A stretch of DNA of 64,000 nt, taken from the sequence record OR670491; one strand, 5' to 3'. The translations under genes and the position numbers were made by a program. The DNA is from Escherichia phage vB_EcoM_JNE01. The notes beneath the pieces were generated by a model, which worked only from the letters and a program-made list of their open reading frames with translations, did not search any database and was not told the origin of the DNA. Position 1 is the first letter of the stretch, and the number at the start of each line of letters is the position of its first letter. Below, one piece after another: positions 24,226-25,945 of the stretch.

Positions 24226-24671
24226 ACCTAAATGTATCTAAAGAGTTTTTCGATGATGTCAAAGAATCTTTCTTACAATTAAACGAGAATAGTCGTTTAG
24301 ATCCTGAAATCAAAGAGGTTGTTCTTCGTTGGCAGAAGAGTCCTTTATTAGATAAAATTGTTCCTAGATGGAGTTGTCAGGGTCACAGTGATACACATAG
24401 TGATTCTGATTATTACATTATTTTCTGTACACAAGACGATGGTGCTGATATTCTATATGATATTTTTGACGAGTTTTGTAGTCTTGAACATAACTGTGCA
24501 GGGTGGAACTACAGTGTTATTAAGTTGATTCACCAGAATCACAAAAAGGCAGAACCGCACATTGAAATTGGGAGATACTCCGAAGGTCACCAAGAGACTA
24601 TAAACTATATGAAGGCTTTATGGCTCGCCAAATTACAGGAGATTGAGGATAATCATGAGCAATACAAATAA
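24222..24671 (+). CDS. hypothetical protein
   Basis: 149 aa; ATGA overlap with upstream gene. Confidence 0.4.
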   Translation: MNLNVSKEFFDDVKESFLQLNENSRLDPEIKEVVLRWQKSPLLDKIVPRWSCQGHSDTHSDSDYYIIFCTQDDGADILYDIFDEFCSLEHNCAGWNYSVIKLIHQNHKKAEPHIEIGRYSEGHQETINYMKALWLAKLQEIEDNHEQYK

Positions 24672-25896
24672 ATTTCTTGAACAAACAATCGTCAAGCACT
24701 TGGCTGGCTCACAGGCATACGGAACCAGTACACCACAAAGTGATACCGATTATCGTGGTATCTTTTTGGCAAACAAAGAGTTCATTATGACTCCTTTTTA
24801 TCGAGTCAAGGAAGTATCTGATGTAAATGAAGAAGATACGAAATTCTATGAACTAAATCAGTACTTACAATTGTATACTGAAGCTAACCCGAACATTCTG
24901 GAATCACTGTGGGTTGACCCTGAACACATCGTAGAAAGTACTGAGATTTATGATTATCTCCGTAGCTTCAACCGTGATCTTCTTAGTTCTAAGATTGCAT
25001 TCTCTTACACTGGTTATGCATACAATCAGGTAAAACGCATGTCAAACCATCACGGTTGGATTGGTAAAGAACAAGTGGCAGAACGACGCTTACGTGAAAT
25101 CTTCACAGAGCACCCAACTAATGAAGTTGTGGATTGGATGTACGCGTATTTCCCTGATTATGTTGTGGAGCGTGTTGTAGAAGAAGATAAGGTACAAGAC
25201 CGTAAAGATGTAGTTGATTTCGACAAATACATGCGAGATACTTCCTTACAACTTATCAGTACTGTTCCTTTGGCACAACATCACTTTGTTCGTTTAGTTC
25301 ATAACTATCTACCACAAAAAGTACTGGACCGTGACTTTAGTCTAGCTAACTTCAATCATGGATACGAGTTAATTCACTACGGTGATAATATCTTTGCAGT
25401 TATTCCTAACGTTAATACTAAAACTATTAGTGTAAACAATGATCTAGTATGGGATAGTACAAAAGAACGTACACCAGAAGAACTAAAGATTACTCCTGCA
25501 CTAATTGTTAAATTCAATCGTAAAGAGTATGAAGAAAACAATGAAGGTCGCAAGAACTATCACAAGTGGAAAGAGAACCGTAATGCGAAGCGTGCAATTT
25601 TAGAATCAAAACACGGATACGACAGTAAACATGCTATGCATACAATTCGTCTTTTGAATACAGCAGAAGAAGCATTACTTACTGGTGAAGTTCTTGTAAA
25701 ACGTCCTGATGCTGATATGCTTATGGATATTCGCAACGGTAAGTGGACTTATGAAGAAGTTATGGAGTACTTCAACGATAAGGTTGACTATATTCGTAAT
25801 GTGGTTTACAAGAAGTCAGTACTACCGAAGAAGCCAAATATTGAATTAGCATCTAAAGTACTAATCGATATTCGAGAAATGCAGTGGTATAAGTAA
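24655..25896 (+). CDS. Pol-beta-superfamily nucleotidyltransferase domain protein
   Basis: N-terminal AGSQAYGTSTPQSDTDYRGIF fits GSx(9-13)DxD minimal nucleotidyltransferase signature; ~410 aa with large helical C-terminal region; RBS gaggataat. Confidence 0.5.
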   Translation: MSNTNKFLEQTIVKHLAGSQAYGTSTPQSDTDYRGIFLANKEFIMTPFYRVKEVSDVNEEDTKFYELNQYLQLYTEANPNILESLWVDPEHIVESTEIYDYLRSFNRDLLSSKIAFSYTGYAYNQVKRMSNHHGWIGKEQVAERRLREIFTEHPTNEVVDWMYAYFPDYVVERVVEEDKVQDRKDVVDFDKYMRDTSLQLISTVPLAQHHFVRLVHNYLPQKVLDRDFSLANFNHGYELIHYGDNIFAVIPNVNTKTISVNNDLVWDSTKERTPEELKITPALIVKFNRKEYEENNEGRKNYHKWKENRNAKRAILESKHGYDSKHAMHTIRLLNTAEEALLTGEVLVKRPDADMLMDIRNGKWTYEEVMEYFNDKVDYIRNVVYKKSVLPKKPNIELASKVLIDIREMQWYK

Positions 25897-25900
25897 TAGT

Positions 25901-25945
25901 TTTATTGGTCACAATGCACCTAAAAATGGCACTGTGACCAATAAA
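25901..25945. repeat. long inverted repeat (13 bp perfect stem, ~13 nt loop)
   Basis: TTTATTGGTCACA ... TGTGACCAATAAA; no following T-tract. Confidence 0.6.

What the first reader, a model, noticed from the sequence alone, without database searches (positions are those of the whole stretch)
24643..25945. Stand-alone Pol-beta-type nucleotidyltransferase followed by a perfect 13 bp inverted repeat
The ~410 aa protein has a minimal nucleotidyltransferase signature (GSQAYG...SDTDYRG) with a large helical C-terminal region. Such enzymes include CCA/poly(A) polymerases, antibiotic NTases and signalling or defence-related NTases. It is distinct from the CCA enzyme at 41803. Immediately downstream is a 13 bp perfect palindrome (TTTATTGGTCACA/TGTGACCAATAAA) without a U-tract, suggesting a protein-binding operator or RNA processing site.
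Basis: partly seen in the sequence, partly recalled or inferred. Interest (0 to 1): 0.5.

Follow-up and report, generated by a model that had tools for sequence, protein, structure and literature searches.

The report
Phage RlaP RNA-repair nucleotidyltransferase plus hairpin
This is an ordinary jumbo-phage gene for an RlaP-family enzyme that probably adds a nucleotide or two to broken RNA ends during tRNA repair. It is followed by a conserved RNA hairpin that marks the end of its early operon, just before a late tail-fibre promoter.

Summary
Both parts of the observation are real. The ORF, best start ATG 24655 and stop 25896 (413 aa), is a Pol-beta-superfamily nucleotidyltransferase. [quoted passage not shown] It is the ortholog of the annotated nucleotidyltransferase of Asteriusvirus and RaK2-like jumbo phages, and a distant homologue of T4 NrdC.11. 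The catalytic residues G18-S19, D30, D32 and D61 are invariant.

Bacterial RlaP adds 1-2 NMPs to RNA 3'-OH ends, preferring cleaved-tRNA mimics (2025 preprint). Jumbo-phage RlaPs were catalogued in 2021. The nearest genome (Turkey5) encodes T4-type Rnl1 and Pnkp about 38 kb upstream, outside the window. A CCA-adding enzyme lies at 41803.

The gene is not a separate unit. It is the last of six early genes that run from a terminator-embedded sigma-70 promoter at 22216-22244.

The 13-bp palindrome (25901-25945) is non-random. It is kept as a hairpin in eight Asteriusvirus sequence variants with compensatory stem changes and a conserved TAAAAA loop core. This favours a structural (RNA) role over an operator. 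It has no U-tract. An ATAAATA late-promoter motif follows it and overlaps its 3' arm.

Verdict: a new member of a known kind, of low to moderate interest.

The parts
22205..22226 (+). Intrinsic terminator ending the upstream structural-gene transcript. Its loop and 3' arm carry the -35 element of the next promoter.
   Evidence: One search finds a 9-bp stem with 5 GC pairs and a T-run. The same design is conserved in A4, vB_Ec-M-J, SP27 and fENko-Kae01.
22216..22244 (+). Sigma-70-type (early) promoter TTGACG-17-TATACT that drives the six-gene operon ending with the NTase.
   Evidence: scores it 10 of 12. In relatives the -10 element is a perfect TATAAT at the same position. Its function is inferred, not shown.
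22270..24225 (+). Four small ORFs of unknown function: 22270-22812, 22821-23339, 23324-23824 and 23827-24225. The first three belong to related PHROGs. The fourth (PHROG 22376) is found just upstream of the NTase across RaK2-like phages.
   Evidence: no Pfam match; synteny and paralogy; PHROGs 18641, 7868 and 22376, all of unknown function.
24222..24671 (+). 149-aa ORF of unknown function that overlaps the NTase start by 17 nt. It is present in Turkey5, RaK2 and one metagenomic relative, and absent from A4- and PBECO4-type phages.
   Evidence: E = 4e-34 to RaK2 ORF004. No Pfam match.
24655..25896 (+). RlaP-family (PF10127, PHROG 388) Pol-beta-superfamily nucleotidyltransferase, 413 aa. The N-terminal NTase domain carries G18-S19, D30, D32 and D61. 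A clade-specific helical insertion spans about residues 137-200. A small beta subdomain and a C-terminal helical domain follow.
25901..25945 (+). Hairpin in the 3' UTR. It has a 13-bp perfect stem, one mismatch and 3 further pairs, and an 11-nt apical loop containing CTAAAAAT. No U-tract follows it.
   Evidence: It is conserved with compensatory changes in 8 Asteriusvirus sequence variants.
25941..25947 (+). ATAAATA motif, a putative T4-like late promoter for the tail-fibre genes. It overlaps the last five bases of the hairpin's 3' arm.
   Evidence: The block CAATAAATA(Y)(Y)CAATA is conserved in A4 and in the 121Q and PBECO4 types. NTAAATA motifs lie upstream of many structural genes in the window. 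ATAAATA is reported as the late-promoter consensus in the related phages CBB and GAP32 (PMC5259590).
25986..26613 (+). Small tail-fibre gene (late), split here into a 42-aa ORF (25986-26114) and a +1-frame ORF (26002-26613). It is the first gene downstream of the hairpin and late promoter.
   Evidence: PHROG 32568, tail fiber protein; PHROG 29689 for the 42-aa ORF.
41803..42915 (+). Separate CCA-adding / poly(A)-polymerase-family tRNA nucleotidyltransferase. It is another tRNA-end repair function of the same phage and is unlinked to the RlaP gene.
   Evidence: PF01743 E = 9e-19, PF12627 E = 4e-8. The A4 ortholog is annotated as a multifunctional tRNA nucleotidyltransferase.

Best explanation
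The window comes from an Asteriusvirus-like jumbo coliphage, 96% identical to phage Turkey5 across this region.

ORF 24655-25896 encodes an RlaP-family Pol-beta nucleotidyltransferase. By analogy with the characterised bacterial RlaPs, it most likely adds one or two NMPs, without a template, to the 3'-OH end of broken RNA. The likeliest target is a tRNA cut in the anticodon loop and trimmed by a host anticodon nuclease. The phage's T4-type Pnkp would then heal the ends, and its Rnl1 would reseal a full-length, functional tRNA. That would make the enzyme part of the phage's counter-defence against tRNA-cleaving immunity.

The gene is the last of a six-gene early operon. The operon starts at a sigma-70-type promoter embedded in a terminator (22205-22244).

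The palindrome at 25901-25945 is transcribed as the 3'-terminal stem-loop of that operon. It most likely defines or protects the mRNA 3' end, acting as a barrier to exonucleases and perhaps as a weak, U-tract-less terminator or pause site. In this way it would insulate the early operon from the tail-fibre genes, which have their own ATAAATA late promoter overlapping the 3' arm of the stem.

Shown: family membership, catalytic motifs, fold class, gene order, conservation and covariation of the hairpin, and partner genes in the closest genome.

Inferred: enzymatic activity, substrate, timing of expression and the role of the hairpin.
For: NTase family and fold:
- PF10127 RlaP scores 58.8 bits against a cut-off of 23.
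- PHROG 388 'nucleotidyltransferase' matches full length at E = 2e-75.
- There are 227 homologues at E <= 1e-5, and all but one of the 120 listed carry PF10127.
- A tblastn search finds 577 phage records, including T4 nrdC.11.
- hhalign against T4 NrdC.11 gives 97.7% probability and E = 1.5e-12 over residues 11-380.
- G18, S19, D30, D32 and D61 are invariant in 22 sequences down to 39% identity.
- The AF2 model has pLDDT 88.9, with an NTase alpha/beta core and a C-terminal helical domain.
- The nearest solved folds are ANT(4')/LinB-type NTases and HEPN/KNTase_C-like helical bundles.

Function:
- RlaP biochemistry (1-2 NMP added to RNA 3'-OH, Mn2+ preferred, cleaved-tRNA mimics preferred, no activity on DNA or protein) and T4 NrdC.11 as a family member: PMC12776372.
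- RlaP is the most prevalent NTase of jumbo phages and mirrors the distribution of RNA ligases: PMC7824862.
- Turkey5 encodes Rnl1 (PF09511 plus the T4_Rnl1_C domain) and Pnkp (kinase plus HAD_PNKP phosphatase) about 38 kb upstream of its NTase.
- T4 Rnl1 hits an Asteriusvirus genome at E = 5e-54.
- Some metagenomic relatives have Rnl1, Pnkp or a CCA enzyme within 4 kb of the RlaP homologue.

Operon:
- The terminator and promoter are found and are conserved in relatives.

Hairpin:
- establish it in the window.
- It is present 4-12 nt after the stop codon in 8 distinct Asteriusvirus sequence variants.
- 9 of 17 pairs show changes on both sides, and 75% of cells are paired against 29-46% in slid controls. 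For four of the five whole-structure measures, 0 of 500 shuffles reach the observed value; for further pair types, 82 of 500 do.
- The late-promoter motif is supported.
Against: NTase:
- No activity has been measured for any phage-clade RlaP.
- Pfam matches only the N-terminal ~120 residues (model positions 25-144 of 249). The same is true of T4 NrdC.11 and all phage homologues tested. Homology of the C-terminal half to the characterised bacterial enzymes is therefore unproven.
- No RNA ligase or Pnkp lies in the 64-kb window, so the defining 'ligase-associated' context is not met locally.
- Neighbourhood links in other phages are few (about 8 of 80 loci) and may be chance.

Hairpin:
- It lacks a U-tract and has a long loop, so efficient intrinsic termination is not expected.
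- In UE-S1 and ph0011 a canonical terminator lies about 60 nt further downstream, so termination cannot be its only role.
- It is absent from relatives where the next gene abuts the NTase gene (vB_Ec-M-J, RaK2, fENko-Kae01, L096-L100), so it is dispensable for NTase function.
- Only 8 related sequences underlie the covariation test.
Confidence: 0.65

Rival explanations
1. The NTase acts on a non-RNA substrate. It could adenylylate a small molecule (as ANT or LinB do), AMPylate a protein (as an MNT antitoxin does), or synthesise or modify signalling nucleotides. That would be a host-takeover or anti-defence role unrelated to RNA repair.
For: The best solved-structure matches are kanamycin NTase ANT(4'), Hailong HalB, LinB and AadA, and HEPN-like bundles for the C-terminal domain. 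The C-terminal two thirds does not match the Pfam RlaP model.
Confidence: 0.1
2. The NTase tails RNA 3' ends for a purpose other than anticodon-loop repair. Examples are marking or stabilising phage or host transcripts, mending tRNA acceptor ends alongside the CCA enzyme, or altering host RNAs.
For: Bacterial RlaP labelled rRNA-sized and full-length tRNA species in total RNA and shows little NTP specificity. The gene is unlinked to Rnl1 and Pnkp. A CCA enzyme, a Nudix protein, an annotated macro-domain protein and a PIN-PhoH protein lie in the same 64 kb.
Against: RlaP prefers the 5' half of a cleaved-tRNA mimic, and it rescues aminoacylation of a tRNA that lacks one nucleotide. Across jumbo phages its distribution follows that of RNA ligases.
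Confidence: 0.15
3. The palindrome is a DNA operator bound by a dimeric regulator. Because its 3' arm overlaps the late promoter, it would control the tail-fibre genes.
For: The 13-bp symmetry is perfect. The 3' arm overlaps the ATAAATA motif in the window and partly in A4. The TAAAAA core of the loop is conserved.
Against: The arm sequences differ between relatives (TTTATTGGTCACA, ATTGGTCTAA, GTGTAATGG, GAGTATAATGG) while the pairing is maintained. An operator would conserve its half-sites. In 121Q-type phages the stem does not overlap the promoter. UE-S1 and ph0011 keep the hairpin but have neither the late promoter nor the tail-fibre genes. G-U pairs extend the helix on the + strand only.
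Confidence: 0.1
4. The hairpin is a recombination or module-junction scar with little function of its own. It sits at a hot spot where the tail-fibre cassette is gained or lost.
For: Gene content immediately downstream is variable. The tail-fibre cassette is present in the window, Turkey5, A4, 121Q and PBECO4. It is deleted leaving a remnant in slurp01, and is absent in UE-S1, ph0011 and vB_Ec-M-J.
Against: A scar would not keep its base-pairing through compensatory changes in several lineages. It would also not keep a conserved loop.
Confidence: 0.1

Closest known systems
Bacterial RlaP (PfRlaP and PaRlaP of Pseudomonas, PF10127), Carruthers, Fatma and Huang, bioRxiv 2025 (PMC12776372)
   Same: Same Pfam family through the NTase domain. 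Both have the hG[GS] ... DxD ... D catalytic set. Both have an N-terminal NTase domain followed by a C-terminal helical domain. The predicted role in RNA repair is the same.
   Different: The window protein is 413 aa, while the Pfam model has 249 positions. Only model positions 25-144 align. It has a ~65-residue helical insertion and a beta subdomain. It does not sit in an RtcB/RtcA or ligase operon. No biochemical data exist for it.
T4 NrdC.11 (phage RlaP, cluster 5 in the preprint; function in vivo unknown)
   Same: Homologous over almost the full length (hhalign 97.7%, E = 1.5e-12). This includes the C-terminal D-x-K...H..R motif. Both are early-region genes near nucleotide-metabolism genes, and both are followed by a stem-loop (an annotated terminator in T4).
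   Different: Identity is only about 26%. T4's protein is 336 aa and lacks the insertion. T4's downstream hairpin is annotated as a terminator in the record and is followed by an early promoter. Here the hairpin has no U-tract and is followed by a late promoter.
Annotated 'nucleotidyltransferase' of Asteriusvirus and Alcyoneusvirus phages (121Q gp506, PBECO4 gp066, RaK2 ORF005)
   Same: These are orthologs at 67-76% identity with the same length and the same upstream synteny.
   Different: The window and Turkey5 lineage is a diverged branch. It retains the 149-aa upstream ORF that the PBECO4 type has lost, and its hairpin stem has a different sequence.
Kanamycin/lincosamide nucleotidyltransferases (ANT(4'), LinB) and MNT-HEPN modules
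   Same: The overall plan is shared: a Pol-beta NTase domain plus a helical (HEPN/KNTase_C-like) domain.
   Different: There is no family-level sequence match and the structural scores are weak. The substrates are different (small molecules or proteins rather than RNA).
Rho-independent (intrinsic) terminators and 3'-terminal mRNA stabiliser hairpins
   Same: It is a stable stem-loop directly after the last stop codon of an operon, and it is conserved by covariation.
   Different: It has no U-tract, an AU-rich stem base and an 11-nt loop. About 17 canonical terminators elsewhere in the window have GC-rich stems and T-runs, and this one does not resemble them.

Membership tests
RlaP (PF10127) nucleotidyltransferase | Match to the family HMM above the curated gathering score | tested here: met
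   The score is 58.8 bits against a cut-off of 23, E = 9e-16. Only residues 16-133 align, to model positions 25-144 of 249. The same partial match is seen for T4 NrdC.11 and other phage homologues.
RlaP (PF10127) nucleotidyltransferase | Pol-beta catalytic signature: G-S, DxD and a third conserved Asp | tested here: met
   G18, S19, D30, D32 and D61 are invariant in 22 homologues. D61 aligns with a conserved Asp of T4 NrdC.11. The motifs sit on the strand-helix and strand elements of the model.
RlaP (PF10127) nucleotidyltransferase | N-terminal NTase domain plus C-terminal helical domain, with the last helix packing back on the NTase domain (PfRlaP crystal structure) | tested here: inconclusive
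RlaP (PF10127) nucleotidyltransferase | Gene neighbourhood with an RNA ligase (RtcB or a 5'-P ligase) and end-healing enzymes | tested here: not met
   No Rnl1 or Pnkp homologue lies in the 64-kb window. In Turkey5 both genes lie about 38 kb upstream. So they are in the same genome but not the same neighbourhood.
RlaP (PF10127) nucleotidyltransferase | Adds 1-2 NMP to RNA 3'-OH; Mn2+ preferred; RNA only | not testable with these tools
   This needs enzyme assays. It is known only for PfRlaP and PaRlaP (PMC12776372).
CCA-adding enzyme / poly(A) polymerase (PF01743) | PolyA_pol head domain and RNA-binding domain | tested here: not met
   The NTase gives no PF01743 hit. The separate gene at 41803-42915 does.
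CD-NTase / defence-system NTases | Match to the PADLOC defence-system models | tested here: not met
   The only hit is insignificant: E = 0.04 to an unnamed small-protein model. CD-NTase structures appear only at E > 1.
Aminoglycoside/lincosamide NTases (ANT, Lin) | Family-level sequence match or close structural match | tested here: not met
Intrinsic (rho-independent) terminator | GC-rich stem, loop of 3-8 nt, U-tract directly after the stem | tested here: not met
   The stem is 13 bp with 5 GC pairs, the loop is 11-19 nt, and the following bases are TATCCAATATAA. The terminator scan does not call it.
Conserved structured RNA element | Base-pairing kept by compensatory changes in relatives | tested here: met
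   9 of 17 pairs change on both sides, and 75% of cells are paired against 29-46% in slid controls. For four of the five measures, 0 of 500 shuffles reach the observed value. There are only 8 related sequences. No Rfam family matches.

The most novel reading that the evidence does not exclude
The phage-clade 'RlaP' proteins (PHROG 388, including T4 NrdC.11) share only the NTase domain with the characterised bacterial enzymes. Their C-terminal module is their own: a beta subdomain plus a helical domain with the invariant residues W305, K306, R309, N310, D323, K325, H329 and R332. They could therefore have a different substrate or reaction from 1-2-nt RNA end repair. The conserved 3' hairpin, with its TAAAAA loop core, could be a cis-acting RNA element recognised by a phage protein. 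Possible roles include autoregulation, or insulation between early and late expression of the tail-fibre cassette.
Probability: 0.1. Interest if true: 0.55.

Novelty: new member of a known kind. Interest (0 to 1): 0.25.

Why it matters
RlaP enzymes are thought to let phages and bacteria restore nucleotides that 'smart' anticodon nucleases such as RloC remove from tRNA. Simple religation cannot repair that damage. No phage RlaP, including T4 NrdC.11, has been tested in vitro or in vivo.

This coliphage clade carries RlaP, Rnl1, Pnkp and a CCA-adding enzyme, and it grows on E. coli. It is therefore a usable system for testing the idea.

The hairpin is a small but clean example of a U-tract-less stem-loop conserved by covariation at an early/late transcription boundary.

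Neither feature changes current understanding. The main value of this work is correct annotation.

Tried and rejected
- NCBIfam gave no hit. PADLOC gave nothing significant.
- PDB sequence searches with the single sequence and with a profile found no relative. The PfRlaP structure is therefore not in the copy.
- The afdb50 library was unavailable.
- No tRNA genes and no Rfam families were found anywhere in the window.
- The exact 9-mer CAATAAATA is not enriched in the window: 3 found against 2.2 expected. The late-promoter reading therefore rests on the shorter NTAAATA motif upstream of structural genes and on the literature.
- A search for other hairpins with a TAAAAAT loop in the window, Turkey5 or A4 found no repeated family.
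- The supplementary tables of the jumbo-phage paper are not held.
- Four metagenomic relatives at 69-76% identity, fetched to enlarge the hairpin alignment, have the next gene abutting the NTase and no hairpin.
- I considered whether the 7-nt loop CUAAAAA of 121Q-type hairpins mimics an anticodon loop. I rejected this because the window and A4 versions have different loop sizes.
- Rnl1, Pnkp or CCA genes lie within 4 kb of RlaP homologues in only about 8 of 80 IMG/VR loci. That is too few to count as real linkage.
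Full report
**Source and observation.** The window is from an Asteriusvirus-like jumbo coliphage. The region 24200-26100 is 96% identical to Escherichia phage Turkey5 (351 kb) and 73-79% identical, over partial matches, to A4, vB_Ec-M-J, EJP2 and TH47. Nearly all genes are on the + strand.

Its TTG at 24643 lies inside a GAGGA ribosome-binding site (24645-24649). The likely start is ATG 24655, which gives 413 aa ending at 25896.

The inverted repeat is at 25901-25913 and 25933-25945, 4 nt after the stop codon. It is 13 bp perfect and extends to 17 nt at 94% complementarity. 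As RNA it folds at -20.2 kcal/mol with z = -5.7. Perfect repeats of this size occur twice in the window against 0.07 expected, and the other one is a canonical terminator. No T-run follows it.

**What the protein is.**
- Pfam gives PF10127 (RlaP, 'RNA repair pathway DNA polymerase beta family') at 58.8 bits against a cut-off of 23.
- PHROG 388 'nucleotidyltransferase' matches the full length at E = 2e-75.
- NCBIfam gives nothing, PADLOC gives only an insignificant hit, and the PDB holds no sequence relative.
- The large protein database holds 227 homologues at E <= 1e-5, and all but one of the 120 listed carry PF10127.
- A tblastn search finds 577 phage records, many annotated 'nucleotidyltransferase', down to T4 nrdC.11.
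- A profile comparison with T4 NrdC.11 gives 97.7% probability and E = 1.5e-12 over residues 11-380.
- In an alignment of 22 homologues down to 39% identity, G18, S19, D30, D32, D61, E66 and E83 are invariant. So is a C-terminal set: W305, K306, R309, N310, R313, D323, K325, H329 and R332.
- The RaK2-like clade carries a ~65-residue insertion (about residues 137-200) relative to the ~350-aa forms.
- The AF2 model is confident (pLDDT 88.9). It shows an N-terminal alpha/beta NTase core, long helices, a small beta subdomain and a C-terminal helical domain.
- Predicted viral structures give many phage 'nucleotidyltransferases'.

One caveat applies. Pfam aligns only the first ~120 residues, and this holds for every phage homologue tested, including T4 NrdC.11. 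Homology of the C-terminal half to the characterised bacterial enzymes is therefore not shown.

**What is known about the family.** A December 2025 preprint (PMC12776372) characterises two Pseudomonas RlaPs.
- They add one or two NMPs to RNA 3'-OH ends.
- They prefer Mn2+.
- They do not act on DNA or proteins.
- They prefer the 5' half of a cleaved-tRNA mimic.
- They partly restore aminoacylation of a tRNA that lacks one anticodon-loop nucleotide.
- The preprint names T4 NrdC.11 as a family member of unknown function.

The 2021 jumbo-phage survey (PMC7824862) already states that RlaP is the most prevalent NTase of jumbo phages. It also states that RlaP's distribution mirrors that of RNA ligases.

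**Context.** The window holds no RNA ligase or Pnkp and no tRNA genes. In Turkey5, a T4-type Rnl1 (PF09511 plus T4_Rnl1_C) and a Pnkp (kinase plus HAD_PNKP phosphatase) lie about 38 kb upstream of the NTase. That is about 14 kb before the window begins. T4 Rnl1 also hits another Asteriusvirus at E = 5e-54.

Inside the window are a separate CCA-adding enzyme (41803-42915), a Nudix protein and a PIN-PhoH protein. The corresponding genes in A4 are annotated macro-domain and Sir2-like.

The NTase is not a separate transcription unit. A terminator (22205-22226) carries in its loop and 3' arm the -35 element of a sigma-70-type promoter (22216-22244). This design is conserved, with a perfect TATAAT, in A4, vB_Ec-M-J, SP27 and fENko-Kae01. 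Four small ORFs of unknown function follow, then a 149-aa ORF that overlaps the NTase start by 17 nt, then the NTase itself. The fourth small ORF (PHROG 22376) precedes the NTase across RaK2-like phages. The 149-aa ORF is shared with RaK2 but has been lost from A4- and PBECO4-type phages.

**The hairpin.** A stem-loop lies 4-12 nt after the NTase stop codon in eight distinct sequence variants: window/Turkey5, A4, 121Q/SP27/UB/CRJP21, PBECO4, G17, slurp01, UE-S1 and ph0011. The stems have different sequences, and the loop core TAAAAA is invariant (mostly YTAAAAAT).

On the alignment, 9 of 17 pairs show changes on both sides, and 75% of cells pair against 29-46% when the partners are slid. For four of the five whole-structure measures, no shuffle out of 500 reaches the observed value; for the fifth, further pair types, 82 of 500 do. 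With only eight related sequences this is moderate evidence, but it is consistent. It speaks for a structural element, most simply RNA. It speaks against an operator, whose half-sites would be conserved in sequence.

The hairpin is absent where the next gene abuts the NTase gene (vB_Ec-M-J, RaK2, fENko-Kae01, Erwinia phage, L096-L100).

In the window, A4 and the 121Q/PBECO4 types it is followed at once by the conserved block CAATAAATA(Y)(Y)CAATA. The ATAAATA part (25941-25947) matches the late-promoter consensus reported for the related phages CBB and GAP32 (PMC5259590). NTAAATA motifs also precede many structural genes in the window.

UE-S1 and ph0011 keep the hairpin but lack both the promoter motif and the tail-fibre cassette. 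They have a sigma-70 promoter and a canonical terminator about 60 nt further on.

About 17 other intergenic hairpins in the window are classical GC-rich terminators with T-runs. This one is not.

My reading is that it is the 3'-terminal stem-loop of the early operon. It would act as an mRNA end-defining or protective structure, and perhaps as a weak terminator or pause site, placed at the early/late boundary. I give this roughly even odds. The operator, junction-scar and protein-recognised RNA element readings remain possible.

**Comparison and verdict.** The protein is an ordinary member of a named and recently characterised family. It is already annotated as a nucleotidyltransferase in several related genomes and has been discussed for jumbo phages.

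It fails the 'ligase-neighbourhood' criterion locally. It meets the HMM and catalytic-motif criteria. Its activity is inferred.

However, its list of candidate families missed the right one. 'Stand-alone' and 'operator' are not the best readings.

Novelty: a new member of a known kind. Interest is low to moderate, mainly because no phage RlaP has yet been tested and this coliphage clade offers a tractable system.

Noticed in passing
window 25986-26613: The small tail-fibre gene downstream of the hairpin is split. A 42-aa ORF in frame 0 ends at ...ACT CGG ATC AAT TGA, and the rest lies in frame +1. In phage A4 the homologue is one 209-aa ORF. The same split, with the conserved junction ACTCGGATC(A/T)ATTGA, occurs in Turkey5, SP27, PBECO4, G17 and CRJP21 (junction sequences read). 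UB has the same two-ORF annotation. In phAPEC6 a 4.66-kDa product next to the tail fibre was detected in virions (PMC7247149). This could be a programmed +1 frameshift at U-UGA, or two separate products.
   Followed up: partly
window 22205-22244 and 29407-29460: Terminator and promoter composites. At 22205-22244 the -35 element (TTGACG) sits in the loop and 3' arm of a terminator. At 29407-29460 a perfect TTGACA-16-TATAAT promoter is directly followed by a terminator hairpin, so transcripts from this promoter would start inside the 5' arm and escape termination. Both designs are conserved in relatives.
   Followed up: partly
window 22270-23824: Three tandem small ORFs (180, 172 and 166 aa) belong to the related PHROGs of unknown function 18641 and 7868. 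They are paralogous to each other and to copies in all RaK2-like relatives.
   Followed up: partly
window 24222-24671: A 149-aa ORF is translationally coupled to the NTase through a 17-nt overlap. It is shared with RaK2 ORF004 (E = 4e-34) and is missing from A4- and PBECO4-type Asteriusviruses. It has no Pfam match.
   Followed up: partly
window 32007-32700, 38535-39379 and 41098-41607: These are long apparently non-coding or poorly called stretches. The 694-nt stretch at 32007-32700 folds strongly (-186 kcal/mol). It matches no Rfam family at gathering threshold and holds no tRNA.
   Followed up: no
window 4889-6328 and 6741-7655: A PIN-PhoH fusion protein (479 aa) and a protein with a CapR homology domain lie about 18-20 kb upstream. 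Both are possible RNA- or defence-related functions.
   Followed up: no
L091 (phage slurp01) 880-1000: In slurp01 the tail-fibre cassette has been deleted. The hairpin, the late-promoter motif, the ribosome-binding site and a few bases of the gene start remain, fused to the sequence that follows the hairpin in UE-S1. This shows that the junction is a recombination hot spot.
   Followed up: partly
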